This document shows, piece by piece, positions 888 to 56,929 of a DNA stretch of 64,000 nt. This DNA comes from an uncultured Actinomycetes bacterium (lineage in GTDB: Bacteria; Actinomycetota; UBA4738; HRBIN12): assembly GCA_963762075.1 (NCBI GenBank), contig CAVXJC010000006.1:503943-567942 (forward strand), in the 5' to 3' direction. Within the stretch, counting starts at the first letter, position 1, and the number at the start of each line of letters is the position of its first letter. The position numbers and the translations under genes were made by a program. The notes beneath the pieces were generated by a model. The model made no database searches. It worked only from the letters and a program-made list of their open reading frames with translations, and was not told the origin of the DNA.

Positions 888-3800
888 TCATGCGCCGGGT
901 TCGGATACCTCGAGATCGGCGAAGTTCGCCGACGTCTTGCCGAACTCCCACCATCCGCGCACCCGAGGCTTGACGACCGCGAGGCTGCGCCCGTACACCA
1001 TCGGGATCACGACGACGCGATCGGCGACCGCCATCCGATCGGCATCGTGGAACAACGCCAGCCTTCCTCGGTCGCTCCGCTCCTGCCGTGCCCGCTCGAT
1101 CAACTCGTCGAACGGCGGATGGTCGAACCCTCCTTCGTTGGTCCGGCTCTGCGAATGGAACAACAGCCGCAGGAAGTACTCGGGATCGGCGTAGCCGGGC
1201 AGCCATCCGGTGAAGTAGACCGGCGCGTGCTCGCGCGGTGGTCGCATCGTCGCGGTCTCTTCCAGCGACCACGTGTGCCTCTCGATCGCAACGCCAAGGG
1301 CCGAGCGCCACGACTCGATCACCGGTTCCAGGATGGGGAGATCGTCGTCGAGGAACGCGACGGGGATCGGCCCCTCGACGCTCGATCGCGCGAGGCACGC
1401 GCGTGCCAACTCGGGATCGAAGCGCAGGGCGATGTCGGGTGTGTGCCCCTGCAACGCAGGGGGCACGATTCCGCCCGTGGCCACGACCATGTTCGCGGGC
1501 ATCGCAGCGGCGAGGACATCGCGATCGATCGCATGGGCGAGCGCCCGCCGAAGGTCGAGATCCGATCCGGTCTCGCTCGTGTGATCGAAGGCCAGGTATC
1601 CCGACCATGCCGCCGGGCCGATCGACGCATCGGGCACGTCGCGCGACATCAGATCGGCCAGGCGCGGGGTGTAGCGAGCTGCGATGACGTCGATCTCGTC
1701 TCGTTCGTAGCCCCCGAGCGCCTCTCCGATCCTGGCTCGTGTGTAGCCGACCGACGCGACGTTGCCCACACGACCCCCGTTGTCACCCGTCCGGCGCTCG
1801 AGGACGAGCCCGTCCGAGGACCGCCGAGCGACCCGGAACGCCCCCGAGACGACCTGCTTCCCCGGCTCGGTCCATCCATCGCCGAGAGCCTCGATCGCGT
1901 GCCGGGGCTGCGGTCCACCGTCCGGACGGTTCATCACGCTCATGAAGTACGGCGCCGGCGCTACGAGCCGGAACTCCACCGTCTGGTCGTCGAGGGCCCG
2001 CACACCGATCCGCCGGGGGTCGGCCTCCTCGCCCAGGTAATACTCCTGACCCCGTTCCAACACGAAATAGATCGCCACCGATGATCCCGGTGTCGTCGGA
2101 TCGAGCACGCGCTTCACGCCGAACTCGACATCGTGCGCCGTGAGCGGTGAGCCATCGGACCACGTGAGACCCTGGCGAAGCTTGAAGACGTAGCGCAAGC
2201 CGTCGTCGGAGATCTCCCATCGCTCGGCCAACGACGGCACGATCGTTCGCTCGGGCCACTGCTCGACCAGGCGATCGAACAACTGCATGCAGAGTTGGAT
2301 GTTCGGCCAGGCGATGGCCGAGCGCGGATCTGGGTCGTCCGGCAGGAAGCTCGTGGCGATGTTGAGCGAGGCCGACGGCGTTCGGGCCGGCGGCTCGGCC
2401 GGCGTCCAGCGCTCGAACGCTTGTTGATACGCCTCGTTCGCCTCGGCGAACCGCAGCGAGACATGGAGCGCGAGCGCCAACTTGAATTGGACGAGCGCGA
2501 TCTCTCGGTCTTCGCCTCGGCGATCGAGGAGCGGCAGGAGCTCCCGGTAGTACGCGATCGCCTCGTCGAGAGCGTATTCCTGTCGGGCGCGATCTCCTGC
2601 GATCGTCAGGTAGCGAACCGCCTTGTCACCGTCCTGCGCACCGAGCCAATGGTGTGCCAACAGTCCGGCGACCTCGTCTTCTCGGTCGGCGTGGTGCTGC
2701 TCCAGCCACTCCGCGGCCCTGCCGTGCAGTCGACGTCGATCCCCGGCGACCAGAGTCCGATACGCCGTTTCCTGGATCAGCGCGTGCGTGAAGCGGTACT
2801 CGGGTTCTGGCCATCGACGCCCCTCGCGCACCAGATCGACCCGCATGAGCTCTCCGAGCGCGGCGCGCACGTCACCGCTGGCCACCATCTCCTGCAGCAG
2901 CGACAGGCTGAACGTGCGACCCAATACCGATGCTGCGACGACGGCATCGTGAACCGATGGTTCGAGTCGGTCGAGACGCGCGAGGATCACCTTCTCGACC
3001 GTGGGTGGTACTTGCAGGTCGACCTCGTGATCGAATCGCCAACCCTCCTCGTCGTGAACGAGCGCACCGGCGTCCACCATCGAGCGAACCATCTCTTCCA
3101 GGAAGAAGGGATTGCCTTCGGCCGACTCCAAGATGCGCGGCTCCACGACCGGCGGAAGGGTTGCTCGGCCGACGAGCGCCGCAAGGAGCTCGCGTCCCGC
3201 GACGCCGGACAGAGCATCGAGGCTCACCTCCCGGAACCGATGCGGAAGCGTGCGAGCCACGTCTTCCTTCAACCGCCACGACGGATGATCGCGTTCGGGA
3301 CGAGCCGTGCAGAGCAGCAGCAACGCTTCGTCCTCAGTGTCGCCAACCAGGCGTTCGATCAGCTGCAGTGACGTGGCGTCCGCCCAATGGAGATCCTCGA
3401 GCAAGACGGCCAACGGGCCCTCGGCCGCCAATCCCTGCAGCGTCTGGCGCACCACCTCGAACGTTCGGTACTGCAGCGCCTCCGGCGAGAGCTCACCGAG
3501 CCGAGACGACTCGTCGGCTGTTGGCGCGAGTCCGAGCAGTGCCGAGAGGTACGGGACCATCTCTCCGGATCGAGCCGCGAACAAGCGGTCGATCTGCCGG
3601 CGAAGCGCCACGCGGACCAGCAGGTCGGGTTCGTCGCCTCGTGCCCCCAACCACGATCGCAGCAGGTCACGGAACGGCCAATATTGGAACGACCCTCCGT
3701 AGCTCACGCACCGACCCTCGAGCCAGAGCGACCTGCCGAACGCAGGCGTCGTCGCACCGAAGGCACGACGCAGCTCGTGCACCATGCGGGTCTTGCCGAT

Positions 3801-4598
3801 ACCAGGCTCGCCGGTAACGAACACGATGCCGCCTGTTCCTTCCGCGACCGCCTCGACGGCGTCCTTGGCCTTGGCGAGCTCTCGGTCTCTGCCGACCATG
3901 CGGGGGGATGATCTGGGGTCGGCCGAACCGTGCGGCCGAGCGCCGTCGCCCGTCACCGTGAACGCGGCCACCGGGTCGGCCTTGCCCTTGAGCTCGAACG
4001 TCTGCCCGTCGTCCCACGTGAACCGGTCCGCCACGATCCGTCTGGTCGCTTCGCCCACCAGCACGGAGCCCGGCTGAGCCTTGGACTGGAGCCTCGCGGC
4101 GACGTTCACGGCGTCCCCCATCGCGCTGAATTCGACCCGCTCACCGGCACCGATCGCTCCGGTCACCACCAGCCCGGTATTCACCCCGACGCGCACGTTC
4201 AGCGCGTCGACCGCCCAGGCCTCGGCCACCTCACGTGCGAAGCTCTCGATGTCGTCGACGATGCGCAGACCGGTGCGAACCGCACGCTCAGCGTCGTCTT
4301 CGTGAGCGATCGGCGCGCCGAAGAGCGCCAGCACCCCGTCGCCGGCCAGATCCTTCACGGTGCCGCCGAACGCATCGACGGCAGAGACCATGCGTGCGAC
4401 GGCATCGCCGACGACGAGCTTCAATTCCTCGGGATCGAGACGCTCACCCAGCGCGGTCGACCCCACCAGGTCGGCGAAGAGCGCCGTCACCACCCGTCGT
4501 TCGTCGCGCACCTCCACCGGGTCATCCTGCCCGTCGCAGCCACGAGCGGCAATGCGGACGCGAGGAGTGGCTCTCGATCCGCGCGATCCCGGCATCAC
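888..4598 (-). CDS. Multidomain signalling protein: class III adenylate/guanylate cyclase + AAA ATPase (P-loop GEPGIGKT) + helical/TPR-like region + C-terminal family-5 solute-binding-protein (DppA/OppA-like) domain
   Basis: Cyclase motifs VVTALFADLVGST and GDGVLALFGAP; Walker A GEPGIGKTRMV; the C-terminal ~500 aa resemble SBP_bac_5. Start taken at MPGSRG (4598) to avoid overlap with the downstream TetR; the full ORF runs to 4709. Confidence 0.8.
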   Translation of the reverse strand: MMPGSRGSRATPRVRIAARGCDGQDDPVEVRDERRVVTALFADLVGSTALGERLDPEELKLVVGDAVARMVSAVDAFGGTVKDLAGDGVLALFGAPIAHEDDAERAVRTGLRIVDDIESFAREVAEAWAVDALNVRVGVNTGLVVTGAIGAGERVEFSAMGDAVNVAARLQSKAQPGSVLVGEATRRIVADRFTWDDGQTFELKGKADPVAAFTVTGDGARPHGSADPRSSPRMVGRDRELAKAKDAVEAVAEGTGGIVFVTGEPGIGKTRMVHELRRAFGATTPAFGRSLWLEGRCVSYGGSFQYWPFRDLLRSWLGARGDEPDLLVRVALRRQIDRLFAARSGEMVPYLSALLGLAPTADESSRLGELSPEALQYRTFEVVRQTLQGLAAEGPLAVLLEDLHWADATSLQLIERLVGDTEDEALLLLCTARPERDHPSWRLKEDVARTLPHRFREVSLDALSGVAGRELLAALVGRATLPPVVEPRILESAEGNPFFLEEMVRSMVDAGALVHDEEGWRFDHEVDLQVPPTVEKVILARLDRLEPSVHDAVVAASVLGRTFSLSLLQEMVASGDVRAALGELMRVDLVREGRRWPEPEYRFTHALIQETAYRTLVAGDRRRLHGRAAEWLEQHHADREDEVAGLLAHHWLGAQDGDKAVRYLTIAGDRARQEYALDEAIAYYRELLPLLDRRGEDREIALVQFKLALALHVSLRFAEANEAYQQAFERWTPAEPPARTPSASLNIATSFLPDDPDPRSAIAWPNIQLCMQLFDRLVEQWPERTIVPSLAERWEISDDGLRYVFKLRQGLTWSDGSPLTAHDVEFGVKRVLDPTTPGSSVAIYFVLERGQEYYLGEEADPRRIGVRALDDQTVEFRLVAPAPYFMSVMNRPDGGPQPRHAIEALGDGWTEPGKQVVSGAFRVARRSSDGLVLERRTGDNGGRVGNVASVGYTRARIGEALGGYERDEIDVIAARYTPRLADLMSRDVPDASIGPAAWSGYLAFDHTSETGSDLDLRRALAHAIDRDVLAAAMPANMVVATGGIVPPALQGHTPDIALRFDPELARACLARSSVEGPIPVAFLDDDLPILEPVIESWRSALGVAIERHTWSLEETATMRPPREHAPVYFTGWLPGYADPEYFLRLLFHSQSRTNEGGFDHPPFDELIERARQERSDRGRLALFHDADRMAVADRVVVIPMVYGRSLAVVKPRVRGWWEFGKTSANFADLEVSEPGA

Positions 4599-4662
4599 GC
4601 GCGTGAAGCAGGCACAGCGCACTTGCAGCGAAACGGCCTCTTTCGATCGCCGCTCGCACCGC

Positions 4663-5271
4663 TCACTCGGCAGGACGCAGCGCCGCCCGAACGAACAGCA
4701 GCACCTCACGCTCGCGGCGACGGAGCGACGCCCGGCCGCTGTCCGCTCCGACCACGGCGCTCAACACGCTCGCTTCGGTGAGCGAGCCGACGACTGCCGT
4801 GTAGAGCGTGAACAGCAGCATGGCGGGGTCCTGCTTGCGGATCTCGCCGCTATCCATGCCGGCCTGCAAGAACTCGATCGCGCGGCGGCGGAGCGGATCG
4901 AGCACGCCGGCGAACCGGTCGAATGCGGCGGGCCCGAGTCGGGCGGCTTCGCGTACGAACATCGGGAACTCGGGCCATTCCGCCGCGAGCCCGAAGACCC
5001 CGTGGATCACGGCCTCGGCGCGATCCCAATAAGTCTCGGCGCCCTCGAGTGCGGCGGCGAGCTCCGAGCCGAGCCGTTCCCCTGCCGCCTGCAGGCACGC
5101 CTCGAGCAAGGCTTCCTTGTTCGGGAAGTAGTAGAGCAGCGTCTGCTTGCGCACTCCGACCGCGGTGGCGATGCTCTCGATGCTCGCGCCCTTGTATCCG
5201 TCGCGACCGAACTGGTGGATCGCCTCGGCGACGATCGTGGTGCGCCGTTGCTCGCCGCCCGTGCGAGGCAT
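4663..5271 (-). CDS. TetR family transcriptional regulator
   Basis: N-terminal HTH IVAEAIHQFGRDGYKGASIESIATAVGVRKQTLLYYFPNKEAL, typical of TetR. Confidence 0.85.
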   Translation of the reverse strand: MPRTGGEQRRTTIVAEAIHQFGRDGYKGASIESIATAVGVRKQTLLYYFPNKEALLEACLQAAGERLGSELAAALEGAETYWDRAEAVIHGVFGLAAEWPEFPMFVREAARLGPAAFDRFAGVLDPLRRRAIEFLQAGMDSGEIRKQDPAMLLFTLYTAVVGSLTEASVLSAVVGADSGRASLRRREREVLLFVRAALRPAE

Positions 5272-5274
5272 GCG

Positions 5275-6183
5275 CTAATCCCAGGTCTTCCTCGTACCAC
5301 GGCGCTCGATCGGACGCGAGCCTTCCCAGCGTTTGCGCCACTCGGGGCCGCTCGGCCCGTACGGGGGCGGGGTCTCACCACGCTCTGCGCGCTGCAACGA
5401 TTCCCACCATGTCGTGCGGTCCTCGTCGAGGAGCTCCGCCACCGCCTGGGTCATGCGAGCGGTGAACGCCTGATGAGTCTCGCCCTCGGCGGGGAACAGC
5501 GGCGCGCCGATCCGCACCCGCACCGGGGGACGGCCTGCCCGCGGCCACCAACTGCCCTTGGGCATCGCCTGGTACGCCCCGCGGATGCCCACCGGCACCG
5601 CGCCGACACCCGCCTCGATGCAGAGCCGCGCGGTGCCATGACGGAACCGCTTCGTGTGGCCGTCGGGCGATCGGGTGCCCTCCGGGAACACCACGAGGCT
5701 CCAACCATCGTCGAGGAGCTCGCGAGCCTTCGTGACCGCGTGCCGCCCACCGCGCGACCGGTCGATCGGGAACGCTCCGTAGGCGAGCGCAGTGAACGAT
5801 GCTCGCCACCACACGTCGAAGAAATAGTCCCGTGCGGCGCCCACAGCCGTCTTCTCCTGCCATCGTTCGGGCAGGGCCGTCAGGATGATCGTCGCGTCGA
5901 GGTGGCTCGAGTGGTTCGAGTAGAAGATCACACCGCCCTCGATCGCCGTGAGGTGCTCGAGGCCGTAGACGCGCAACGCGACCTGGCTGCGCAGCAGCGG
6001 GCCGAGGCCGGCGTTCAAGATGACGAGCCGCGCTGCTGTGCCCGCACCCGAACGGGCCCAGTCGGTCGGGAACACCGCGTCCTCGCGAGGCGGCGTGTGC
6101 GGCTCGGCGCTACGGGGCACCATGGGGCGGCGACCCCATCGGAACCCCTCCGACATCGTCTTCAGCTCGTCGCGCACGCCCAT
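5275..6183 (-). CDS. 1-acyl-sn-glycerol-3-phosphate (lysophospholipid) acyltransferase, PlsC family
   Basis: HX4D motif NHSSHLD and FPEGTRS motif; start may be the internal M at 6156. Confidence 0.8.
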   Translation of the reverse strand: MGVRDELKTMSEGFRWGRRPMVPRSAEPHTPPREDAVFPTDWARSGAGTAARLVILNAGLGPLLRSQVALRVYGLEHLTAIEGGVIFYSNHSSHLDATIILTALPERWQEKTAVGAARDYFFDVWWRASFTALAYGAFPIDRSRGGRHAVTKARELLDDGWSLVVFPEGTRSPDGHTKRFRHGTARLCIEAGVGAVPVGIRGAYQAMPKGSWWPRAGRPPVRVRIGAPLFPAEGETHQAFTARMTQAVAELLDEDRTTWWESLQRAERGETPPPYGPSGPEWRKRWEGSRPIERRGTRKTWD

Positions 6184-6196
6184 CGCTCAGGTCTCC

Positions 6197-7786
6197 TCAG
6201 TGCACGTCGGCGATCATCACGGGCGGCGCGTGGAAGTAGGTGATCTCGGGCGAAGAGCCGACCGTGTCCTTGGCCATCTCGAGCGCGTCTCGCATCGAGT
6301 CGGCGCGCCGGTAGCCGAGTCGCGCCACGCTCGACGGGTTCCCACCGACGAAGATCACATCGCCCGCGTGATCGCGTCCGTGTGCGCCCCAGTACCACAT
6401 GTAGAACGGATGCACGCCGTGGTACGCGTGGCTCGTGCGGTACAGGTGCACGTACCAGGGGTCGGTGGCGTAGCGTTCCTCGAACTCCTTCTCGATCGTC
6501 TTCGGATCGGTGCTCTCGGCCAGCACTTCCTCGAAGAAGTCGATGTAGCTCGGGTGATGGATCGAGTGGAACTCCCACGGCACCGGGTGATGCAGGATGA
6601 TCACGCCACTCTGCTTCACGAGCGGCTTGTTGCGATACATGTTGAACAGGTACCCGAGCCCGAGGCAGTGCACGAGGATCGGGTTCAGGATGGAGTTCAC
6701 GTTGTACGGCCCGAGGTAGGGCACGCCCATGATCAGCACATCGGCCTGCCCCTGCACCTCCACGAGCTGCTGGCGATGCAGGTTCGTCAGGGTGCGTTGG
6801 TGCACCGCCTCGACCTCACCCGCATTCACGCCGGTCAGCTTGTAGGGAGCCTCGATACGCCGGAAGAACTCACGTCGTACTCGGGGCGGTGCCATGTCGT
6901 TGGCCTTCTTCGCCGCGATCATCAGTGCCTGATCGCTCGCCCCCCACTCCCATTCCCGCTTGTTCAGGAAGCCGAGATTCGACGGGAACGTCTCCGAGTT
7001 GACGGTCGTCTCGATCTGGAAGATCTTGACGCCCGCATCACGCAGTACCCTGCCCATGCGATTCACCGAATCGTTGATCGCGCTGTGGCCTTCTCGCGGA
7101 TCCATATACGACTTCGAGTGCATCATCGTGTTCACGTTGTGGTGGTGCTTGAGGCTCCGGTATCCCGCGAGCCCGACCGCGACCGACTTGTGACCGCCGT
7201 CCATCGCGACCAGGTTGATGTTCACGTAGACGATCAGATCACTCTCGGCGGCGCGCTTGGAGATCTCGACCAGCTCGTCGTCGTCGGTCCTACCGATCTC
7301 GACCAGGCCCTGCGGATCTTCGGCGTCGAAGTTCTTCAGGTGTTCCGGGTAGAACGAGCGGTACACGCGCTCGCCGACCGCTCGCCGGATCTCCTCGGAG
7401 GTCATGCGCCGGTGGAGCGCGGTCGCGACGATCAGCTCGAGGTCGTCGACACCGGCGCGGGCGGCGAGTTCGATCACGTGCTCGAGGATCGGTTGGCGCA
7501 CGTCGGGCGTGCGCATCGGCGGCAGCGGGATCGAGATGTCGTCGATCGCGATCGTGAGCTTCATGCCACCGAACATCAGCTCAGGAAGCGGCTTGGAGTC
7601 GCCGACGGGGTTCAACAGCGCGTGACGGACCGCGGCCGGTACGTCGCGGATACCGGGGAGCGGGTCGGGCGGATACACGACGCGGGTGCCGAGGGGGAAC
7701 TTCTGCATGCGGTAGCCCTCGCCCTGATGCACGAGCAGCGGAGGCGTTCGCTCGTCAACCTGCAACACGAATCCCGGTCTGGGCAT
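6197..7786 (-). CDS. LarA-like (DUF2088 / lactate-racemase-domain) protein, extended (529 aa)
   Basis: N-terminal fold similar to LarA; a candidate Lys/His cluster SLKHHHNVNTMMHSKSY; no larB, larC or larE nearby. Confidence 0.55.
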   Translation of the reverse strand: MPRPGFVLQVDERTPPLLVHQGEGYRMQKFPLGTRVVYPPDPLPGIRDVPAAVRHALLNPVGDSKPLPELMFGGMKLTIAIDDISIPLPPMRTPDVRQPILEHVIELAARAGVDDLELIVATALHRRMTSEEIRRAVGERVYRSFYPEHLKNFDAEDPQGLVEIGRTDDDELVEISKRAAESDLIVYVNINLVAMDGGHKSVAVGLAGYRSLKHHHNVNTMMHSKSYMDPREGHSAINDSVNRMGRVLRDAGVKIFQIETTVNSETFPSNLGFLNKREWEWGASDQALMIAAKKANDMAPPRVRREFFRRIEAPYKLTGVNAGEVEAVHQRTLTNLHRQQLVEVQGQADVLIMGVPYLGPYNVNSILNPILVHCLGLGYLFNMYRNKPLVKQSGVIILHHPVPWEFHSIHHPSYIDFFEEVLAESTDPKTIEKEFEERYATDPWYVHLYRTSHAYHGVHPFYMWYWGAHGRDHAGDVIFVGGNPSSVARLGYRRADSMRDALEMAKDTVGSSPEITYFHAPPVMIADVH

Positions 7787-7799
7787 CTGTCGTCGTCTC

Positions 7800-9038
7800 C
7801 TAGGTCACGGGTTGGTGAGTCGTCGAGTGTTCCTGCGGGGCGAAGGCGACCTTGAACGTGCCGAGGCGCCCGGCAGACATGGCGTGGTCGATCGCGTCAC
7901 GCCAACGGGCGAGCGGATACGTCGCGCCGACCATCGGGGCCAGCATCGGCCCGATCTGGTGCGCCAGCTCGAGCGCGAGCGCGAACGAGTGGCGCCTGCC
8001 GTCATCGGTCTGCTCCATGGCGGTGGTGTAGGCGCCGACGAGCTCGAGCTCACGGAACCACAGCGGCGTGAGGTCGGCGCCGCCCGACGGGATGCCGCTC
8101 ACCACCACTCGGCCTCCCGCCTTCGTGGTTCGAAGAGCCATGTCGAGCGCGCGCTTCGTTCCTGTGCACTCGAACACCACGTCGGCACCGCCGAGCAAGA
8201 AGTCCTGACCGCGCTCGGGGGAAAGCTTGACGGCATGCCCCGCGCGGCGAACGGCCTTCAACGCGTGTTCAGGGCGCACGACCTCGTCGGCACCGGCCAT
8301 CTTCGCCGCCGCGCGCTGCGCCGAGTGCTTGGCCGCCACGATCACGCGGCCCGGCTGCGCGAATCGTCGGAGCGCAACCTGGGTCAGCAACCCGACCGTG
8401 CCCGAGCCGATCACGAGCACGTCGGCGCCTTCGGGCACACGTGCACGGAAGACCGAGTGGATGGCCGTCGCGAGGGGCTCGATCAGCACCGCGGCGTGAT
8501 CGTCGATGCCGTCGGGCACCGCCCAGAGCTGCGAACGATGCGCGAGCAACATGCGGCTCCATCCGCCTCCCGTGCTCGAGCAGAACCCTGTCTGCAAACC
8601 CGCCTTCAGCGAGCCGACCGACACCCGGTCGCAGCGTCCGTACTCACCCACGGCGCAGTGCTCGCAGAGCTCGGCCTGTTCCCGCGCCGCACAGCCCAGC
8701 ACCGATGAGAGCGTCACTCGCTGGCCTGCTTTGTGATCGCCGCAGTCGTCGAGCAACTCCCCGACGACCTCGTGGCCCGGCACGAACGGCATCGACACGA
8801 GCGGGGAGAAGTAGAAGGAGGACTCTCCCGCGATCGTCGAGAGGTCGCTGCCGCAGATGCCCGCGAGCGTGGGCTTCAGCCGGGCCCAGCCGACGCGCGA
8901 TGGCTCGGGGTCGGCCTGAGTAACCAGTCGCAGTGGCGTCAACGGCCCGCCCGCCACGAGGCCGGGCACCTTCCTGCCCGCGACCCGGGCGCCCACGTAC
9001 CGCGGCATCGAGCGGAAGTACTCGAGCGCGAGCGCCAT
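7800..9038 (-). CDS. Zinc-dependent medium-chain alcohol dehydrogenase (threonine/sorbitol-DH-like)
   Basis: GICGSDL and PGHEVVGEL zinc-site motifs, Rossmann VIGSGTVG; start uncertain (possibly MPRYVG at 9005). Confidence 0.8.
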   Translation of the reverse strand: MALALEYFRSMPRYVGARVAGRKVPGLVAGGPLTPLRLVTQADPEPSRVGWARLKPTLAGICGSDLSTIAGESSFYFSPLVSMPFVPGHEVVGELLDDCGDHKAGQRVTLSSVLGCAAREQAELCEHCAVGEYGRCDRVSVGSLKAGLQTGFCSSTGGGWSRMLLAHRSQLWAVPDGIDDHAAVLIEPLATAIHSVFRARVPEGADVLVIGSGTVGLLTQVALRRFAQPGRVIVAAKHSAQRAAAKMAGADEVVRPEHALKAVRRAGHAVKLSPERGQDFLLGGADVVFECTGTKRALDMALRTTKAGGRVVVSGIPSGGADLTPLWFRELELVGAYTTAMEQTDDGRRHSFALALELAHQIGPMLAPMVGATYPLARWRDAIDHAMSAGRLGTFKVAFAPQEHSTTHQPVT

Positions 9039-9054
9039 CAGCCCGCCAGTCCGT

Positions 9055-11355
9055 TCACGCGCGCACCGCCGGTTTGGGGAAGCGCACCCGGGGCATACCC
9101 TTGGTCATCTGCCATTCCTCGATCGGCCAGCGGCGGCGACGCGCGTACCGGTAGAGCGACGAGTCGGGTGAGACCGCGACCGGGTTGCCCACCGCTCGGA
9201 GCAGCGGAAGATCGGAGTATGAGTCCGCATATGCGTAGGAATGACGCAGGTCGACCCCTCCGAGCGTTGCGTACCGGCGGAGCCATGCCGCGCGCGCCTC
9301 GCCCACGAGCGGCGGCGCCGACATGAACCCGGTGAAGCGCCCGTCGCGCTTCTCGAGCTCGGCGCCGATCACCACATCGAACAGCGGCGAGAGCGGGCGC
9401 ACGAACGGCTCGGCGGCGGCGGTGATCAAGATCGTCAGATGGCCGGCGGCGCGATGCTCTCGGATACGGCGGATCGCCGCCGCGCTCGCTTTCTGCAGCA
9501 TGAACTCGGCCACGTGACTCGTCACGAGTCGGTCGATGCCCTCGACGCTCGCACCCTCGAACCGCCGGAAGAAGGTACGCAGGAAGTCGCCGCGGTCGCG
9601 CCGATCGATCTGCAGGTATCCAGGGATACGCCCGAAGACGCTCGCGAGCTCGCGCGGCCATTCCTCGGGTGTCAGGTCGGCCATGCGCGCCCACACGTAG
9701 CTCTCCACCACGTTCGACGTGATGATCGTGCCTTCCATGTCGAAGAGGGCGAGCACGGGCTCGTCACGTTCGCGGATCGTCACACTCGCGCCGCGGCCGT
9801 CCCGACGAGAGAGCTCACGCAGCGACTGGGTGACCGCGGGAGAGTGCACATCCTTCATGTAGTGCTTCCAGTCGATCGCCGCGGCATCGAAGGGGAACGT
9901 TTCCGCATCACCGGACGAGAGCGACTCGAACAGCGCAAGCGTTCGGTCGTCGGTGTAGACGACCTCCGCCTCGGTGTACATGCCGTACAGATCGCTATAG
10001 CGCTTCACGAAGTCGATGCGCGCCTTGTCACGATCGACGCGACGAACGGCGTCGCGCATCGACTTCGATTTCGGCATGTGGGTCACGACCTGCTCGGCGA
10101 TATCGGTGAGCCGCTCGGCCCGGCGCAGCATGCGCTCGACGGTGAGGTTGCCGGGGAAATCCCACTCGGGCACCTTGTGCTCCCCACGACCCCGTTCGGG
10201 AAGAGGGTGCTCCTCGAAGTATTCGCGGATCCACTCGTACAACTCGAAGAAGCGCAGCGGGTTCCGGGAGCCCGAGCTCACGTTGTAGTGCGCGGCCTCA
10301 CCCGGGGCAGGCGGGTGCGCGGCGATCGCGAGCAACGCGTTCACCACGAAGTCCACCGGGATGATGTCGATGATGCCTTCGGGGATCCCCGGGAACTCCG
10401 GGATCTGCCCCAGCCCGTAGGCGCGGATGATCGGGTCGGCCATCTTGAATCCGTCGATCCACCCGGGGAACGGATGCGAGTACGCCGACTCGATGATCGA
10501 CGGCCGCACGATCGAGAGCGGGAGATTCGCCTCGGCCGCGAGCTCCTCGACCGCCCGTTCGCCCATCGCCTTCGTGAAGGTGTAGACGTCGGGCCATCCG
10601 AGCGAGCGTGCCCTGGTGCGCCCGTACTCGACCAGCCGCTTGGAGACCCACTTCAGACGACGATCCTCCGCGTCGTCGGCGACGGTCGTCGGCCCCGCTC
10701 GCGAGTGCTCGTCGCGGGCGAGACCCATGAACGCCGAGAGCATCTCGGGCTTGCGGCTGGCGGCTTCCACGTCGCTGCGGGCAGACATGGCGAGCTCGAG
10801 CTCGAGCCGGTAGTCGACTCGGTGCTCCAGGGGCCCCTCGGGAATCACGCCCTTCTGCACTCCGGCGACGTAAGCGGTCGAGACGTGCACCAGCGCGGGG
10901 GTCGATCCACCGCCGATCACCCCTCGATAGAGGTTCATCGCGCCCTGAAGGTTCGTTATGAACGCTTCGTCGATGGGCGGGTCGAAGCTCACCGTCGCGG
11001 CCGAGTGCATCGCGACGTCGATGCCCGCGGGAACCTCTGGCTGCCCACGACCGAAATCGCCGTCGACCACATCGACCCGATCGTCGAGCATCCGTCTGAG
11101 CCCGTCCTCACCGACGCGCTCCCGCAACGTGTCGAACGCCGGCTTCCGGAACAGGTACTCGACTCGTTCGCGGCTCGTCGCTCCCGTCTGCGATCGCACG
11201 AGCAGCACGATGCGAGTCTCTTCGAAGTCCGCCAGCAGCCGTTCGAACACCACCTGCGCGAGGAAGCCGGTCACCCCGGTCAACAACATCGTCTTGCCCG
11301 AGAGCGCTTCGACGATCGAAGGCGTCGCGGAGGCGCGTGCCTTGCCCTCTACCAT
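9055..11355 (-). CDS. Fatty acyl-CoA reductase (male-sterility/NAD_binding_4 domain) fused to a C-terminal HAD-IB phosphatase domain
   Basis: N-term LLTGVTGFLAQ plus YTFTK (Yx3K); C-term DMEGTIITSNV...ADSYSDLPLL, HAD-IB-like. Confidence 0.75.
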   Translation of the reverse strand: MVEGKARASATPSIVEALSGKTMLLTGVTGFLAQVVFERLLADFEETRIVLLVRSQTGATSRERVEYLFRKPAFDTLRERVGEDGLRRMLDDRVDVVDGDFGRGQPEVPAGIDVAMHSAATVSFDPPIDEAFITNLQGAMNLYRGVIGGGSTPALVHVSTAYVAGVQKGVIPEGPLEHRVDYRLELELAMSARSDVEAASRKPEMLSAFMGLARDEHSRAGPTTVADDAEDRRLKWVSKRLVEYGRTRARSLGWPDVYTFTKAMGERAVEELAAEANLPLSIVRPSIIESAYSHPFPGWIDGFKMADPIIRAYGLGQIPEFPGIPEGIIDIIPVDFVVNALLAIAAHPPAPGEAAHYNVSSGSRNPLRFFELYEWIREYFEEHPLPERGRGEHKVPEWDFPGNLTVERMLRRAERLTDIAEQVVTHMPKSKSMRDAVRRVDRDKARIDFVKRYSDLYGMYTEAEVVYTDDRTLALFESLSSGDAETFPFDAAAIDWKHYMKDVHSPAVTQSLRELSRRDGRGASVTIRERDEPVLALFDMEGTIITSNVVESYVWARMADLTPEEWPRELASVFGRIPGYLQIDRRDRGDFLRTFFRRFEGASVEGIDRLVTSHVAEFMLQKASAAAIRRIREHRAAGHLTILITAAAEPFVRPLSPLFDVVIGAELEKRDGRFTGFMSAPPLVGEARAAWLRRYATLGGVDLRHSYAYADSYSDLPLLRAVGNPVAVSPDSSLYRYARRRRWPIEEWQMTKGMPRVRFPKPAVRA

Positions 11356-11443
11356 GCGGCAGATTATGCCTCTCTACCGGTCGGTAGACAACCGGGCGAG
11401 GAGGCGATCCCTCGCGAGGAACCGGCTGCGCCCGCCCTGCGCC

Positions 11444-14400
11444 CTAGCGGAGGCCGACGTTGACGAAGTGGGTCGTGCCGTCATCCAGCAAGACGCCGAT
11501 CCGCCAGAATCGATTCGCCTGCGTTTTCGCGGTCCCCCAGTTGTAGATGTACTGCTGGTCCACGGAATCCCAGCGATAGGTGCCCCCGCTTGTGGGTGAG
11601 CTCGTGTAGACCGACTCGTCGATCGGAGCGGTCAACGCGCCACCGGGCGCGGGCGCGAGCCAGACAGGAAGCATGTTGGTCTGCACCACCCTGCCGTCTG
11701 CGGTCCGCAGTCGGAACTTCACCGGTACGGTCGATCCCGCCTTGAAGATGCTGGCGCCGGTTCCAACCTGATGCGCCGTGTCGTTGATCGGCTGCAGGAA
11801 CCCGCCGAACGCGTACACGACCCGGTACGACCCCGTGACCGACGTCGCGTTCCCGGCGAGGTCGGTCGCGGTGGCGGTGAAGGAGTACGTCCCGACACCG
11901 TTGGCGAGCCCGCCCGAGATGCTCATCCGGCAGGAACCGTCGAGTCCCGAGCCGGCGTCCGCCGCCGAGCACGTTCCCGAGGGGACCGCACCGAGCGTGT
12001 AGATGCCTCCGTTCGCGACGCCTCCGATCGTGATCGATGGATGTGTCACGTCGATGTTCAGGCCCTCGACCGCTGCCCTACGCTCGTTGCCGGCCGCGTC
12101 GACGGCGACGCCGCTCACCGACTGCCCGGCGCCCTCGCCCGAGAGCACCGCATCGGCGGGGCAGGTCGCGATGCCCGAGAGCCCGTCGTGACAGCTGAAG
12201 CGCACGGTGACCGCCGAGGCGTACCACCCGTGGGCGTTCGGCGTCGTGGTCGGCGCCCCCGAGATCGACGGAGCGGTCTCGTCCAGCTTCACCTCGACCG
12301 AGTCGGTCCCTCGGTTGCCGGCCATGTCGGAGGCCTCACCGTGCACGGTCGTCCCCCCGGTTTCTTCGGTGATCGTGACGTCGGCGGTGACCGTGTCATC
12401 GTCCACACCCGAGCCGTCCTCGTCGTCGACCGCGTCGAACCGAACCGTGACGTCCGATCGGTTCCAGCCGGCGGCGTTCGGCGACGGCGTGAGAACGTGC
12501 GACACGGCCGGAGCGATCGTGTCGTAGTCGATCTGCACGGCGCCGGGCGTCTCCTCGTTGCCGGCGGCGTCGACGGCATAGAACCGCACCGTCGCGTCGC
12601 CCGACCCGCTCAGCGGCACCGCAACACGCGCCGATGCGCCGGGTTCGGTGTGCCACGCGCCCGCACCGATGCGGTAGCGGATCTCCTGGACGCCCGACAG
12701 CCCGACCTGGTCGTCAGCCGAGAGCTCGATCGTGGCGTCGTCACGGCAGTAGCCGTTCGCACCGGTGCACGACAGCGTCGCCGTCGTCGACGGTGCCCGG
12801 CTGTCGATGTCGATGCCGTGCAGGGTCGTGCTGGCCACATTGTCGGCGCGGTCGGTCGCCGCGCCCGTCACGAACTGGTCGGCGCCGTCCTCGGAGAGCA
12901 CGGTGTCGGCGGCGCACTCCTGCGTACCGGAGAGCAGGTCCTCACACGTGAAGTGCACGCGGACGGCGCCGTTGAACCACCCTGCGCCGTTCGGGGAGCG
13001 TGGCGCGAGGTCATCGTCCACCGTGGTGGCCGCGATCGTGGGGGCGGTTCGGTCGATCATGATGCCGGAGTAGGCGCCTGTACCCTCGTTGCCCGCCTTG
13101 TCGAACACCGAGACGGGTCCAGCGACCAGGCCGACTCCCTCGCCGGTGACGGTGATGTCGTCCGGAAGGGTGGAAGGGTCGACGCCGGAGAGGCCATCCT
13201 CAGCCGCCCATCCGACCGTGACGTCGCTCCGGTACCAGCCGAATGCGTTCGGCTGCGACGAAGGCGTGCCCGACAGGGTCGGGACTGTCAGGTCGATGTT
13301 GATGCCAGCGACCGAGACCGAGGTCGTGTTACCGGCGTTGTCGAGCGCCATACCGGTGACGCTCTGTTCCTCGCCCTCGTTCACCACCTGCGCGGGATCG
13401 CTGCAGGCGGCGACGCCAGACTCGGGATCCTCACACAGAAAGTCGACCACCACCGTGCCGTTGTTCCAACCGAAGCCGTTGGCGGCGGGCTGACGGTTGG
13501 CGGCGATCGTGGGCGGGTTGCCGTCGATCTTCACGGTGATCGTGTGACCGGGAGCAGTCTCGTCTTCCACGTTGCCGGCGAGGTCCTCGCTCCAGAACGT
13601 GATGGTGTGCTCCCCGGTCAAGGTGTGCTGGAACGGTCCGGTGTATTGCCGGGCGGAGCCTCCGTCGACGCGGTATGACGTGGTTGCGATCCCGGACAGG
13701 TCGGGTCCGGTGGCGAGGGTGACCTCCACGCCGCCCGCGTGCCACCCGCTCGCGAGCGGATCGGGCAGGATCGCCGTGGTGCTCGGAGCGGTCCGGTCGA
13801 TCTTGATACCCGACACCGAGCGGTCGCGTGAGTTCCCGGCCCGGTCGGTCACGTGCGCGGTCGCGGAGAGGTCGTCGCCCTCGCCGGTCACGACGCTGTC
13901 CTGCGGGCACGTGCCCTCGATGCCGGAGAGCGCGTCGAAGCACGACCATCCAACGATCACGTCGCCGCGGTACCAGCCGTGCTCGTTCGGATCCGTCGCG
14001 GTCTCGCCGGTGAGCGACGGCTTCGTCTCGTCGATATCGATGTCACCGACCACCGATCGGCTCTCGTTGCCGGCACCATCAGTGGCCAGGCCGGTCACCG
14101 ACTGGTCCTCGCCTTCGCCCAGCGTCTCGTCACCGGTGCAGTCCGCGACACCCGAGAGCAGGTCGGTGCACGTGAACGTCACCGTGACGGGAGCGTCGTA
14201 CCAGCCCGAGCCATTCGGGTCGCGGTCCCGGGCACCCGAGATCGTCGGGTCGGTCATGTCGATCGACACGCTCGCCTCGTCGGTCGCTTCGTTGCCGGCG
14301 GTGTCCACGGCCGAGCCGGTCACGAGCTGCCCCGCCCCCTCGCCTGACACGACCTGCGGGCCGGTGCAGCTCGCGATACCCGAGAGGGTGTCGGTGCAGA

Positions 14401-15844: not shown

Positions 15845-16073
15845 CAGCCTCAACAACTCCTCGTATGGCGAGCCCCCCAACCGCCGTTCGGCGTCACCCA
15901 TGCGGCCCGTCGCCGCGATGACCCAGGATGCACTCCACGCACCCGACCCGGGAACCGCTGAAGGTCGCAACGTTGCGCAGGGGGTGCGGGCCCGACAGCC
16001 TGGGCCGAAGGTCCGGGGATCGAAGGGCAAAGGGCGGAGGGAGCTCCATCACCGCCACTAGACTTCTCAGCCC

Positions 16074-26772: not shown

Positions 26773-27325
26773 GCGCCCGGAACCGTTCGGCTGCTGCCGA
26801 GGCCACATGCGCGTCTTGTCCCGCGCGGCCCTCGGTGGCGCCGAACCAGGCGTCTGCTTCGAGCCATGCGGTCTCGATCTCGTTGTGGGGCCGCAGCCGG
26901 CCGTGTGAGCGGAACGCATCGACCGACCCGTAGCGCGTGATCGCCCCGTCGAGGTGCTGTTGTTCGAACTCGAGCCCGTACGGGGGCATGCGCTCCAGGT
27001 GATGGAGCGCCCAGAGCAGGGTGCCGAGCGCTTCCTTGCGCCACATCGCATCGGCCACAGCCTCGCGTGGCCACGACCCTGAGGGCGACTCGAGAAGCGA
27101 CCGTTCGGCGGCGGTGACCGCGGGCCAAACGGCCTCGCGTTCGAGCCAGTCGTCGGTCTCTCGGCGTGCCGCCTCGGCTTGTCTGACACGGCCCGGATCG
27201 CCCTCCGACTCGTTCACGACGAACTCGATTGAGCCCCGACGCACGAACGCGTACAGCACGAGTGCCCGGTCGCTCACCTCATCAACGGTCGGCCTCGTCA
27301 CGTCGGGGTCGCCTCGACGCCTCAC
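26735..27325 (-). CDS. Hypothetical protein (DUF-type, ~196 aa)
   Basis: ORF with protein-like composition, convergent with the DUF4349 gene; no motif recognised. Confidence 0.45.
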
Positions 27326-27915
27326 ATCTCGCGACGGCCGTCCAGTGCCTGGGAGAGGGTCACCTCGTCGGCGTACTCGAGATCGCCGCCGACCGGCAGG
27401 CCGCTCGCGAGCCGGGTCACCCGCACCCCGACCGGCTTCAGCAGCGCCGCCACGTACATCGCCGTCGCGTTGCCCTCGAGGTTGGGGTTCGTCGCCACGA
27501 TGACCTCGGTCACGTGGTCGCGTTCGACCCGGTCGAGCAGCTCCTGCACGCGAAGATCGTCGGGCCCGACACCGTCGAGCGGGCTGATCGCACCGCCCAA
27601 GATGTGGAAGCGACCCTTGATGAGCGAGGTCTTCTCGATCGTGGCGGCGTCCTTCGGGTCCTCGACCACACAGAGCAGCGTGCGGTCGCGCGACTCATCG
27701 CGGCAGATGCGGCAGAGATCGCCCTCGGCCACGTTGCCGCATTCCCGACAGAAAGCGATGCGATCCTTCGCCTGCACGATCGCGGCGGCGAGCCTCTTCG
27801 CGTCGGTGGGATCGGCCTTCACGAGCCAGAACGCGAGCCGCTGCGCCGATTTCGGTCCGACGCCGGGAAGTCGCGCGAGCTCGTCGATCAGCTCCTGGAT
27901 GGGACCTTCGTACAC
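27322..27915 (-). CDS. recR: Recombination protein RecR
   Basis: Hh[19 protein letters not shown], Cys4 zinc finger CRECGNV...CRIC, Toprim. Confidence 0.95.
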
Positions 27916-27918
27916 CGA

Positions 27919-45376: not shown

Positions 45377-45386
45377 GCGCGCCAGT

Positions 45387-56140: not shown

Positions 56141-56886
56141 GCAGGCCGCTTCAGGGTCGGACGGTGCTCGTCACCAGGCCGGCCGACCAGTCGGCCTGGC
56201 TCGCGGCTGCGCTGCGACGCCGCGGTGCCCGCCCCATCGTCGCTCCCGCGATCGAGATCGTGCCGGCGCGATCGGCCGCGCTGACAGCGGCCCTTCACGA
56301 GCTCGAGACCGGCGCGTTCACGTGGCTCACACTGACCAGCCGGGCTACCGTCGCGATGCTTGCTGACCGCCTCGACGGGCCGCGGGCGGTGGGCACAACG
56401 AAGGTCGCCGCGATTGGTGGCGGCACGGCGAGGGAGTTCCGCCGGTGGGCCCGTCGGGACCCAGATCTCGTCCCGACCACGTTCACGACCGCGGGACTTG
56501 GCCGGGCCTTCCCCCGCGGTGTCGGGCGGGTGCTTTGCGCGCGCGCCGACATCGCACCCGACGGGCTCGAGGTCGCCCTTGAGAAGAAGGGATGGTCACC
56601 GACCCGCGTCGACGCCTACCGCACCCGCATGCCCCGGTCCCTGCCGGTCGAAGCCCGCGAGGCGCTGCGATCGGGCGTCGTCGACGCCGTCACGTTCACG
56701 AGCGCGTCGACCGTGCGCGGGTTCGTGGGCGCGCTCGGAACCGTGAAGGGGTCTCCGAAAGTCGTCTGCATCGGGCCTGTGACGGCGAAGGAAGCACGCG
56801 CCCACGGATTCATCGTGCACGCCGTGGCCACTCCGCACACGGTCGATGGACTGGTCGAGGCACTCGAGCGAGTGCTGACGCCCTGA
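56137..56886 (+). CDS. hemD: Uroporphyrinogen-III synthase (standalone)
   Basis: HemD-like fold and operon position between hemC and hemB. Confidence 0.7.
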   Translation: MSRPLQGRTVLVTRPADQSAWLAAALRRRGARPIVAPAIEIVPARSAALTAALHELETGAFTWLTLTSRATVAMLADRLDGPRAVGTTKVAAIGGGTAREFRRWARRDPDLVPTTFTTAGLGRAFPRGVGRVLCARADIAPDGLEVALEKKGWSPTRVDAYRTRMPRSLPVEAREALRSGVVDAVTFTSASTVRGFVGALGTVKGSPKVVCIGPVTAKEARAHGFIVHAVATPHTVDGLVEALERVLTP

Positions 56887-56929
56887 ACGTCGTTGGCGTG
56901 ACGGGCCCCGCCGCCGCTACGCTGCAACG

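What the first reader, a model, noticed from the sequence alone, without database searches (positions are those of the whole stretch)
6197..7786. Orphan LarA-like (DUF2088) protein without larBCE, embedded in the lipid operon
The 529-aa protein has the lactate-racemase N-terminal domain organisation and a conserved-looking SLKHHHNVNTMMHSK cluster. This could be the Lys/His site that tethers the nickel-pincer nucleotide (NPN) cofactor in LarA-family 2-hydroxyacid racemases and epimerases. It is about 100 aa longer than canonical LarA. No larB, larC or larE cofactor-biosynthesis genes are in the window. Either the NPN genes lie elsewhere, or this is an NPN-independent member of the family. Its placement between an ADH and an acyltransferase argues for a lipid-linked alpha-hydroxy substrate.
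Basis: partly seen in the sequence, partly recalled or inferred. Interest (0 to 1): 0.6.

Follow-up and report, generated by a model that had tools for sequence, protein, structure and literature searches.

The report
Nickel-cofactor enzyme in ether-lipid-type operon
The gene is a genuine relative of nickel-dependent lactate racemase from an already catalogued but uncharacterised branch, and it proves to be the counterpart of ElbC, the unexplained gene of the myxobacterial ether-lipid operon, which makes its role in lipid synthesis testable.

Summary
The 529-aa ORF (window 6197-7786, minus strand) is real. It is a full-length member of NCBIfam NF052592 (LarAH14/15/16) and an ortholog of Frankia LarAH14. 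Desguin et al. 2020 found that protein inactive on seven 2-hydroxyacid reactions.

It keeps the nickel-pincer (NPN) site: D83, H125, K200 and H216 correspond to LarA D72, H108, K184 and H200. It lacks the second catalytic His (N191) and the carboxylate-binding residues (I86, N368). The closest solved structures are the single-histidine LarA homologs 9q3k and 9q3j.

No larB, larC or larE lies in the 64-kb window. In 15 of 80 related actinobacterial genomes, however, a complete larB-larC-larE set abuts the same four-gene cassette. The NPN-independent reading is therefore unlikely.

The cassette (fatty acyl-CoA reductase fused to a HAD phosphatase, Zn-ADH, LarA homolog, PlsC-type acyltransferase) is collinear in 70 of 70 complete loci. 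It matches the Myxococcus xanthus elb ether-lipid operon domain by domain. The protein is 47% identical to MXAN_1529, which is ElbC and is listed as of unknown function.

Best reading: an NPN-dependent, non-racemase hidden-redox enzyme of an elb-type lipid pathway, possibly the ether-bond-forming step. The gene family is known. The ElbC link was not found in the searchable literature.

The parts
11363..11391 (-). Sigma-70-like promoter TTGTCT-17 nt-CATAAT. Only 7 nt separate it from the ATG of the first cassette gene, so the transcript may be leaderless.
   Evidence: It is the only promoter-like site in 4300-11800. Sequence read.
11373..11388 (.). Perfect palindrome TCTACCG-nn-CGGTAGA in the promoter spacer. 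It is a candidate operator of the cassette's TetR regulator. A degenerate second copy lies at 11348-11363.
   Evidence: An exact copy sits upstream of the FAR-HAD gene in 7 related loci, and all 7 carry the TetR gene. Chance expectation in the window is 0.13.
9055..11355 (-). Fatty acyl-CoA reductase (NAD_binding_4 + Sterile) fused to a HAD-IB phosphatase, 766 aa.
   Evidence: Pfam. PDB 7eoz fatty acyl-CoA reductase at E 2e-51, and SerB-type phosphatases. Residues 13-510 are 29% identical to ElbD 8-541 (E 1e-47). The HAD part is 32% identical to ElbB (E 2e-27).
7800..9038 (-). Zn-dependent medium-chain dehydrogenase of the polyol-dehydrogenase type, 412 aa.
   Evidence: Pfam ADH_N and ADH_zinc_N. 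Nearest solved structures are sorbitol, idonate, threonine, butanediol and galactitol-1-P dehydrogenases. It has no homolog in the elb operon.
6197..7786 (-). LarA homolog of group 14 (ElbC-type), 529 aa. Key codons: D83 7538-7540, H125 7412-7414, N191 7214-7216, K200 7187-7189, H216 7139-7141.
5275..6183 (-). PlsC/AGPAT-type acyltransferase, 302 aa.
   Evidence: Pfam PF01553. PDB 5kym PlsC. 36% identical to ElbD residues 1266-1421 (E 2e-25).
4663..5271 (-). TetR-family regulator, 202 aa, 3 nt after the acyltransferase gene. It is present at this position only in the nearer relatives.
   Evidence: PF00440 in precomputed annotation. tblastn hits in 19 of 80 loci.

Best explanation
The gene encodes a group-14 LarA homolog, the actinobacterial counterpart of Myxococcus ElbC.

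Shown here:
- It has the complete LarA two-domain fold.
- It keeps the residues that tether and coordinate the nickel-pincer nucleotide: K200, H216 and D83.
- It keeps one catalytic His (H125).
- It lacks the second catalytic His and the carboxylate-binding residues.
- It is the best-conserved gene of a four-gene cassette (FAR-HAD, Zn-ADH, LarA homolog, PlsC-type acyltransferase). That cassette is invariant across Actinomycetota, corresponds domain by domain to the elb ether-lipid operon, and is flanked by larBCE in about a fifth of relatives.

Inferred:
- The enzyme uses NPN made by lar genes located elsewhere in this genome.
- It catalyses a hidden-redox (hydride-borrowing) step on a non-carboxylate hydroxyl of a glycerol-phosphate or fatty-chain intermediate. 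It does not racemise a 2-hydroxy acid.

My preferred concrete mechanism, which is speculative:
1. FAR delivers a fatty aldehyde or alcohol.
2. The LarA homolog abstracts a hydride onto NPN, with H125 as the single base. The hydride comes from the C2-OH of glycerol-3-phosphate or from the fatty alcohol.
3. A hemiacetal forms between the aldehyde and the sn-1 OH and loses water.
4. The stored hydride is returned to give the alkyl ether.
5. The polyol-type ADH (ElbE in Myxococcus) reduces 1-alkyl-DHAP.
6. The acyltransferase acylates sn-2.
7. The HAD domain removes the phosphate.

On this reading the protein fills the slot that AGPS occupies in the eukaryotic pathway.

Graded confidence: family identity about 0.95; NPN dependence about 0.8; part of an elb-type lipid pathway about 0.65; the ether-bond-forming step itself about 0.25-0.3.
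For: Family identity:
- NF052592 matches at 878.9 bits against a cut-off of 740.
- The N-terminus matches Frankia LarAH14 A8L878.
- Foldseek top hits are 9q3k and 9q3j at E 1e-33, TM 0.76/0.84, and all 19 significant hits are LarA family.

NPN site:
- The HMMER alignment to LarA and to LarASp maps D83, H125, N191, K200 and H216.
- These are invariant in 247 sequences, except N191 at 241 of 247.
- H125, K200 and H216 are invariant in 80 of 80 species-level loci.

NPN genes:
- 15 of 80 loci have larB, larC and larE abutting the cassette, in at least 3 arrangements. In L072 the larC stop overlaps the FAR-HAD start.
- NCBIfam confirms them: LarB 246.9 bits, LarC 183.5 bits, LarE 277.6 bits, all above cut-offs.
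- Adjacency to larBCE is the criterion the field uses to nominate NPN enzymes (PMC13524815).

Cassette:
- It is collinear in 70 of 70 loci that contain all domains.
- Median identity is 64% for the LarA homolog against 48-52% for the neighbours.
- No other gene family recurs next to it except TetR and larBCE.

elb link:
- P0271, which is MXAN_1529, is 47% identical over the full length, E 1e-175.
- The M. xanthus locus reads SDR, HAD, Lar_N, FAR-AMP-PP-AT, SDR. This is the published elbA-E order, with elbC of 'unknown function' (PMC9131029) and elbD = MXAN_1528.
- The window's FAR, HAD and AT domains hit ElbD, ElbB and ElbD respectively.
- The same HAD-LarA homolog-ElbD-SDR core is found in other group-15 loci.

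Substrate type:
- R75 is replaced by I/L/V and K298 by N.
- The nearest solved relatives are thought to bind a phosphorylated linear polyol or aldose and sit next to triose-phosphate genes.

Pathway gap:
- The steps from fatty acid to alkyl ether in M. xanthus are unknown.
- An i15:0 aldehyde depends on elbD, and fatty alcohols were not detected (PMC9131029).
Against: - No larBCE lies in this window, nor within 10 kb in 65 of 80 relatives. Of those 65, 34 have full flanks.
- None lies within 10 kb of the three group-15 loci inspected, including M. xanthus.
- NPN binding has never been shown for a group-14 or group-15 protein.
- Frankia LarAH14 supplied with NPN was inactive, although only 2-hydroxyacid reactions were tried.
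- elbC has not been tested on its own. The elbB insertion phenotype was attributed to polarity and was partly rescued by elbD alone.
- 'Group 16' relatives that have lost the Lys and His still sit next to the same acyltransferase and HAD genes. Catalysis by this protein may therefore be dispensable in some lineages.
- The actinobacterial cassette lacks the acyl-AMP ligase and ACP domains of ElbD, and its dehydrogenase is unrelated to ElbE.
- I found no report of ether lipids in the genera carrying the cassette.
- elbD homologs do not always predict ether lipids, as in Pontiella.
- The specific chemistry is inferred by elimination only.
Confidence: 0.55

Rival explanations
1. It is what its NCBIfam name says: an NPN-dependent 2-hydroxyacid isomerase. 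It would racemise or epimerise a free or lipid-linked alpha-hydroxy acid, for example a 2-hydroxy fatty acyl group.
For: It is a member of the LarA superfamily with an NPN site and one catalytic His. All characterised LarA homologs act on 2-hydroxy acids (PMC7583248, PMC11770544). The lipid-gene context could supply a 2-hydroxyacyl substrate.
Against: The second catalytic His, needed for two-base inversion, is Asn, Thr or Ser in 80 of 80 loci. The carboxylate binders R75 and K298 are replaced by hydrophobic residues and Asn. LarAH14 was inactive on seven hydroxyacid reactions. No fatty-acid 2-hydroxylase recurs near the cassette.
Confidence: 0.13
2. It is NPN-independent: a scaffold or pseudoenzyme, or an enzyme using another cofactor or a metal site in the His-rich C-terminal domain. 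The LarA-like residues would be an evolutionary relic.
For: No lar genes lie in the window. Roughly 60% of the 50%-identity cluster representatives sampled (about 30 of 48) have lost H, K and H, yet most keep the C-terminal positions H400, H411, H456, H459 and W464. Group-16 proteins with a decayed site stay in the same context. No activity was found for LarAH14.
Against: H125, K200 and H216 co-vary strictly: they are all present or all lost. They are invariant in 247 sequences and in 80 of 80 loci. larBCE abuts the cassette in 15 of 80 loci, in one case with overlapping stop and start codons. The closest solved relative was isolated with covalently bound NPN.
Confidence: 0.1
3. It is NPN-dependent and lipid-related, but not the ether-forming step. 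It might invert or transiently oxidise the sn-2 carbon of a glycerol-phosphate lipid backbone, or shuttle hydride between a lysolipid and a fatty aldehyde. Alternatively the cassette makes a different product altogether, such as wax-like esters, alkyl phosphates or diol lipids.
For: The context and residue evidence is the same as for the best explanation. Intermolecular hydride shuttling by NPN is now documented in another fold. The polyol-type ADH and the FAR could serve other neutral-lipid pathways.
Against: The cassette corresponds point by point to the eukaryotic FAR, GNPAT, alkyl-DHAP reductase and phosphatase set. That leaves only the AGPS slot unfilled. The elb operon is genetically tied to ether lipids. 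None of this is direct evidence.
Confidence: 0.2

Closest known systems
LarAH14 of Frankia sp. EAN1pec (Franean1_4168, A8L878), LarAH group 14 of Desguin et al. 2020; NCBIfam NF052592
   Same: Ortholog with a near-identical N-terminus and the same motifs. Both have the same neighbours, published as COG0204, COG0560, COG1063 and COG3320.
   Different: Nothing essential differs. The published table did not list larBCE association or the elb correspondence. This window's clade adds a TetR regulator with a conserved operator.
ElbC (MXAN_1529) of the Myxococcus xanthus elbA-E ether-lipid operon; LarAH group 15
   Same: 47% identical over the full length, with the same D, H, N, K and H-H residues. 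It lies next to a HAD phosphatase, a FAR domain and an AGPAT domain.
   Different: In Myxococcus the FAR and AT are domains of one 1470-aa protein that also carries acyl-AMP ligase and ACP domains. The HAD is a separate protein, and the partner reductases are SDRs rather than a Zn-ADH.
Single-histidine LarA homologs LarASp and LarABw (PDB 9q2u/9q3k, 9q3j; group 17)
   Same: These are the best sequence and fold matches. Asn stands at the LarA His174 position. The Lys tether, Ni-binding His, Asp, Tyr307 and His401 equivalents are all shared. All are about 500 aa long.
   Different: Sequence identity is only about 20%. Lys76 is replaced by Ile86 and His306 by Pro360. There is an insertion of about 40 aa at residues 283-319. 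The gene context is lipid genes rather than glycolytic genes.
Lactate racemase LarA of Lactiplantibacillus plantarum (PDB 5HUQ)
   Same: Same fold. D72, H108, K184 and H200 equivalents are present. Presumably the same NPN cofactor.
   Different: H174 is replaced by Asn, R75 by Ile and K298 by Asn. The protein is about 100 aa longer. No lar genes are nearby, and no lactate or hydroxyacid context.
Alkylglycerone-phosphate synthase (AGPS), as a functional analogy only
   Same: It occupies the only step of the FAR, GNPAT, AGPS, alkyl-DHAP reductase scheme that has no candidate in the cassette.
   Different: There is no homology. AGPS is a flavoenzyme. The analogy is an inference, not a test.

Membership tests
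LarA superfamily (DUF2088, NPN-dependent racemases/epimerases) | Lar_N domain and two-domain LarA fold | tested here: met
   Pfam E 1.3e-35. AF2 pLDDT 94.4. Foldseek hits to LarA structures only, TM up to 0.84.
LarA superfamily | Lys that tethers NPN (LarA K184) and His that ligates Ni (H200), plus Asp72 | tested here: met
   K200, H216 and D83 by HMMER alignment. K200 and H216 are invariant, and D83 is conserved in 79 of 80 loci and in all 247 sequences.
LarA superfamily | Two catalytic histidines (H108 and H174) | tested here: not met
   H125 is present. The H174 position is N191, and is N, T or S in 80 of 80 loci.
LarA superfamily | Carboxylate-binding residues R75, Q295 and K298 | tested here: not met
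   R75 is replaced by I86. K298 is replaced by N368 and Q295 by a gap, according to the published group-14 column and motif conservation. The C-terminal mapping rests on alignment, not on a superposition I could inspect.
LarA superfamily | larB, larC and larE present in the genome | not testable with these tools
   Absent from the 64-kb window. The rest of the genome is not available. They are adjacent to the cassette in 15 of 80 relatives.
LarA superfamily | Racemase or epimerase activity with bound NPN | not testable with these tools
   Literature only: the ortholog LarAH14 was inactive on 7 reactions.
NCBIfam NF052592 LarAH14/15/16 | Full-length score above the curated cut-off | tested here: met
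   878.9 bits against 740, residues 6-528 on profile positions 1-519 of 520.
Single-His LarA subfamily (LarASp/LarABw) | Asn replacing His174, with the subfamily's own active-site set (Lys76, His306, Tyr307, His401) | tested here: inconclusive
   The Asn, Tyr and His401 equivalents are present. Lys76 is replaced by Ile and His306 by Pro. Identity is about 20% and the context differs, so this is a sister branch rather than a member.
elb-type ether-lipid gene cluster | ElbC homolog adjacent to homologs of ElbB (HAD) and of the FAR and AGPAT domains of ElbD | tested here: met
   47%, 32%, 29% and 36% identity, with E values from 1e-175 to 2e-25.
elb-type ether-lipid gene cluster | ElbD acyl-AMP ligase and ACP domains; ElbE-type SDR | tested here: not met
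   The cassette has no AMP-binding or PP-binding domain. The Zn-ADH has no elb homolog.
elb-type ether-lipid gene cluster | Production of alkyl or vinyl ether lipids | not testable with these tools
   No lipid data exist for the source organism. I found no report for the genera carrying the cassette.

The most novel reading that the evidence does not exclude
LarAH14/ElbC is the missing AGPS-independent ether-bond-forming enzyme of aerobic bacteria. It would be a nickel-pincer enzyme that builds the alkyl-glycerol ether by hydrogen borrowing. It abstracts a hydride from glycerol-3-phosphate C2 or from a fatty alcohol. A hemiacetal or oxocarbenium forms with the fatty aldehyde. The hydride is then returned. 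This would be the first NPN enzyme in lipid biosynthesis and the first with C-O bond-forming chemistry.
Probability: 0.25. Interest if true: 0.9.

Novelty: new member of a known kind. Interest (0 to 1): 0.58.

Why it matters
Two open questions meet at this gene.

The nickel-pincer field has a large, strongly conserved LarA branch (groups 14 and 15, thousands of sequences). It has no known substrate and only one catalytic histidine.

The bacterial lipid field has an ether-lipid operon (elb) whose ether-forming chemistry is unknown. One of its genes, elbC, is labelled 'unknown function'.

Showing that these are the same protein family, and that nickel-cofactor biosynthesis genes sit beside the actinobacterial version, gives a concrete and cheap set of experiments.

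If the enzyme forms or processes the ether linkage, three things follow. NPN chemistry would extend beyond hydroxy-acid racemisation. An AGPS-independent route to ether lipids would be explained. Genomic markers used to attribute environmental ether lipids (alkyl glycerol ethers, possibly brGDGT precursors) to their producers would be refined.

The current database name, 'NPN-dependent hydroxyacid isomerase', probably over-states what is known.

Tried and rejected
1. The search for related loci with the 49- and 18-sequence alignments failed because no stretch was conserved enough. An 8-sequence alignment worked.

2. I looked for informative gene fusions of the LarA homolog among long representatives. 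There were none. One protein is Lar_N plus a chlorophyll a/b-binding domain, probably a eukaryotic gene-model artefact.

3. I looked for further conserved neighbours by clustering all ORFs of the 80 loci. Only TetR and larBCE recur.

4. I looked for larBCE next to three myxobacterial-type elbC loci. There were none within 10 kb.

5. A literature search found no paper holding both 'lactate racemase' and 'ether lipid'. Searches for DUF2088 with acyltransferase or FAR gave nothing relevant.

6. I considered that the SBP_bac_5 domain of the neighbouring cyclase protein might be a nickel-binding NikA. Its scores are far below every curated cut-off and similar to those for OppA and DppA, so I rejected this.

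7. I considered the nicotinate phosphoribosyltransferase and the AKR elsewhere in the window as NPN-related. There is no evidence beyond their presence.

8. Numbering slip. Alignments A1-A3 and the AF2 model were built from window:6197-7783:-, which on the minus strand drops Met1. Residue numbers are therefore true numbering minus 1. All numbers in this report are true numbering, checked.
Full report
**Observation.**
The ORF at 6197-7786 lies on the minus strand and encodes 529 aa. It is clearly coding. GC3 is 0.87 in a window of 67.7% GC. The identical protein is called on 8 metagenome contigs, and more than 6,000 homologs exist. Pfam finds only Lar_N (residues 37-226, E 1.3e-35). NCBIfam places the whole protein (residues 6-528) in NF052592, 'LarAH14/15/16 family', at 878.9 bits against a cut-off of 740. 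An AlphaFold2 model (pLDDT 94.4, pTM 0.92) matches only LarA-family structures. The best matches are 9q3k and 9q3j, the 'single catalytic histidine' LarA homologs (E 1e-33, TM 0.76/0.84).

The gene sits in a tight minus-strand operon:
- FAR-HAD fusion, 9055-11355
- Zn-ADH, 7800-9038
- LarA homolog, 6197-7786
- PlsC-type acyltransferase, 5275-6183
- TetR, 4663-5271

The gaps between these genes are 16, 13, 13 and 3 nt.

No larB, larC or larE is in the window. tblastn with a proteobacterial lar operon (L086) and with actinobacterial seeds gave nothing better than E 0.08. A Pfam sweep of 46 ORFs of the window found no such domains.

**Already-published background.**
The N-terminus matches Frankia sp. 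EAN1pec A8L878 (Franean1_4168). This is 'LarAH14' of Desguin et al. 2020 (PMC7583248). That paper reports three relevant things:
- It placed the protein in group 14 ('unknown function').
- It listed its neighbours as COG0204, COG0560, COG1063 and COG3320.
- It purified the protein, supplied NPN, and found none of seven 2-hydroxyacid activities.

A 2025 paper notes that groups 14 and 15 lack the His174 equivalent (PMC12611868). So the family and its lipid-like context are not new.

**Residues (true numbering, Met1; checked).**

| LarA residue | This protein |
|---|---|
| D72 | D83 |
| R75 | I86 |
| H108 | H125 |
| H174 | N191 |
| K184 | K200 |
| H200 | H216 |

These equivalences come from the HMMER alignment to L. 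plantarum LarA. Alignment to LarASp (9q2u) puts N191 on Asn185, K200 on Lys195, Y361 on Tyr307, H459 on His401, P360 on His306 and I86 on Lys76.

The tether Lys is K200, in GGHKS.

I aligned 247 intact-site sequences: 121 close relatives, 113 ElbC-type and 13 diverse. The following are invariant: D83, R97, H125, R126, K200, H216, H329, Y361, H411, Y449, H459 and W466. N191 is Asn in 241. In the 80 species-level genome loci, H125, K200 and H216 are 80 of 80. Position 191 is N in 67, T in 12 and S in 1, and never His.

Among 48 representatives at 50% clustering, about 18 keep the site. In those, D, H, K and H are kept together. The rest have lost these residues together. Most of them keep the C-terminal residues H400, H411, H456, H459 and W464. 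These decayed forms correspond to published 'group 16'.

**NPN dependence.**
I fetched 80 related loci from species-representative genomes. All are Actinomycetota: Micromonospora, Actinomadura, Actinoplanes, Kribbella, Nocardioides, Frankia, Acidimicrobiales and many MAGs.

In 15 of them, complete larB, larC and larE genes directly abut the cassette, in at least three arrangements:
- upstream, divergently transcribed;
- upstream on the same strand, with the larC stop overlapping the FAR-HAD start in L072;
- downstream, convergently transcribed.

NCBIfam confirms them above curated cut-offs: LarB 246.9 bits, LarC 183.5 bits and LarE 277.6 bits. Such adjacency is the criterion used to discover new NPN enzymes (PMC13524815). 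The closest solved relative was purified with covalently bound NPN.

I conclude that the 'orphan' state is local. The NPN genes are probably elsewhere in this genome. This cannot be verified from a 64-kb window.

**The cassette.**
tblastn of the window's proteins against the 80 loci finds FAR, HAD, ADH, LarA homolog and AT in the same order and on the same strand, within 7.5 kb, in 70 of the 70 loci that contain all five. The other ten are cut by contig ends. The LarA homolog is the most conserved member. Its median identity is 64%, against 48-52% for the others. Clustering all ORFs of the loci shows no other recurrent neighbour except TetR and larBCE.

**Link to the elb ether-lipid operon.**
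Desguin's group 15 contains MXAN_1529. elbD is MXAN_1528. The M. xanthus locus reads:
- SDR
- HAD
- Lar_N (MXAN_1529)
- a 1470-aa FAR / AMP-binding / PP-binding / acyltransferase protein
- SDR

The window protein is 47% identical to MXAN_1529 over its full length (E 1e-175). The window's other domains also match the operon:
- the FAR domain hits ElbD 8-541 (29% identity, E 1e-47);
- the HAD domain hits ElbB (32%, E 2e-27);
- the acyltransferase hits ElbD 1266-1421 (36%, E 2e-25);
- the Zn-ADH has no elb counterpart.

Two further group-15 loci show the same HAD-LarA homolog-ElbD-SDR core. No paper in the searchable library contains both 'lactate racemase' and 'ether lipid'. The two literatures appear unconnected. 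This is absence of evidence within one library, not proof of novelty.

**Mechanistic inference.**
The nearest solved relatives of the neighbours are:
- an alcohol-forming-type fatty acyl-CoA reductase (7eoz);
- polyol (secondary-alcohol) dehydrogenases;
- PlsC;
- SerB-type phosphatases.

Set against the eukaryotic ether-lipid pathway (FAR1, GNPAT, AGPS, alkyl-DHAP reductase, then acylation and dephosphorylation), every step has a candidate in the cassette except AGPS. The LarA homolog is the only component without a role.

In M. xanthus the steps from fatty acid to alkyl ether are unknown. An elbD-dependent i15:0 aldehyde is seen, and fatty alcohols are not.

A single-base NPN enzyme suits a reaction in which hydride leaves and returns without inversion. 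The loss of the carboxylate-binding residues, and the phosphorylated-polyol ligand suspected in the sister subfamily, fit a glycerol-phosphate-type substrate.

I therefore propose hydride-borrowing etherification. The fatty aldehyde and the sn-1 OH of glycerol phosphate form a hemiacetal. It loses water, and NPN delivers the hydride it took from C2-OH or from a fatty alcohol. Reduction of alkyl-DHAP by the ADH follows, then sn-2 acylation and dephosphorylation.

This last level is inference by elimination, and I put it at about 0.25-0.3.

**Counter-evidence.**
- NPN binding has never been shown for this branch.
- elbC has never been tested alone.
- Decayed-site relatives persist in the same context.
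- ElbD's ligase and ACP domains are absent here.
- I found no report of ether lipids in these actinobacterial genera.
- elbD homologs do not always predict ether lipids.

**Regulation.**
The only sigma-70-like promoter in 4300-11800 lies at 11391-11363, 7 nt from the FAR-HAD ATG. Its spacer holds a perfect palindrome, TCTACCGnnCGGTAGA (11373-11388). The same palindrome is found, exactly, upstream of the cassette in seven related loci, all of which carry the TetR gene. It is a likely TetR operator.

**Verdict.**
The protein is a further member of a catalogued but functionally unknown LarA branch.
- The 'NPN-independent orphan' idea is not supported.
- The 'classical racemase' idea is not supported.
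- The lipid context is supported, and sharpened to an elb-type cassette.

Interest lies in the ElbC equivalence and the larBCE linkage, which make two open questions experimentally tractable.

Noticed in passing
window 11348-11391: A promoter-like site lies 7 nt from the ATG, suggesting a leaderless transcript. Its spacer holds the perfect palindrome TCTACCGnnCGGTAGA, with a degenerate second copy. The palindrome is exactly conserved upstream of the cassette in 7 loci that all carry TetR, so it is a likely TetR operator.
   Followed up: yes
window 888-4709 (-): A protein of about 1210-1273 aa fuses an adenylate/guanylate cyclase domain, an AAA_16 STAND-type ATPase and a family-5 periplasmic solute-binding domain (OppA/NikA-like). 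It lies directly downstream of the TetR gene. It is conserved there only in the nearest relatives (L006-L008, 77-80% identity). The domain combination is unusual.
   Followed up: partly
proteins P0126, P0131, P0133 and others; published 'group 16': Many relatives have lost H125, K200 and H216 together, yet most keep the C-terminal positions H400, H411, H456, H459 and W464. According to Desguin Table S1 they still sit next to the acyltransferase and HAD genes. It is unexplained whether they are pseudoenzymes or use the C-terminal site.
   Followed up: partly
loci L026-L082: The position of LarA His174 is Thr rather than Asn in 8 of the 15 loci that carry larBCE next to the cassette, against 4 of 65 loci without it. 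This may simply reflect phylogeny.
   Followed up: no
window 11444-16030 (-): A 1528-aa predicted surface protein with three OmpL47-type beta-barrel domains, Big_13 Ig-like repeats and a C-terminal PxKF domain lies immediately upstream of the cassette. It is not conserved there in relatives.
   Followed up: no
window 37443-38792 (+) and 44405-45508 (-): A nicotinate phosphoribosyltransferase, on the route to NaAD, which is the LarB substrate. Also an aldo-keto reductase; some AKRs were recently shown to use the nickel-pincer cofactor. Both families are common, and nothing ties them to the cassette.
   Followed up: no
protein P0169: A 947-aa representative that is 37% identical to the query combines Lar_N with a chlorophyll a/b-binding domain. 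This hints at algal homologs of this branch, or at a fused gene model.
   Followed up: no
window 53958-59317 (+); 27322-29730 (-): A heme-biosynthesis run (GlutR, porphobilinogen deaminase, HemD, ALAD, class-III aminotransferase) together with recR and dnaX. This shows the window is ordinary chromosome of an uncultured soil actinomycete.
   Followed up: no
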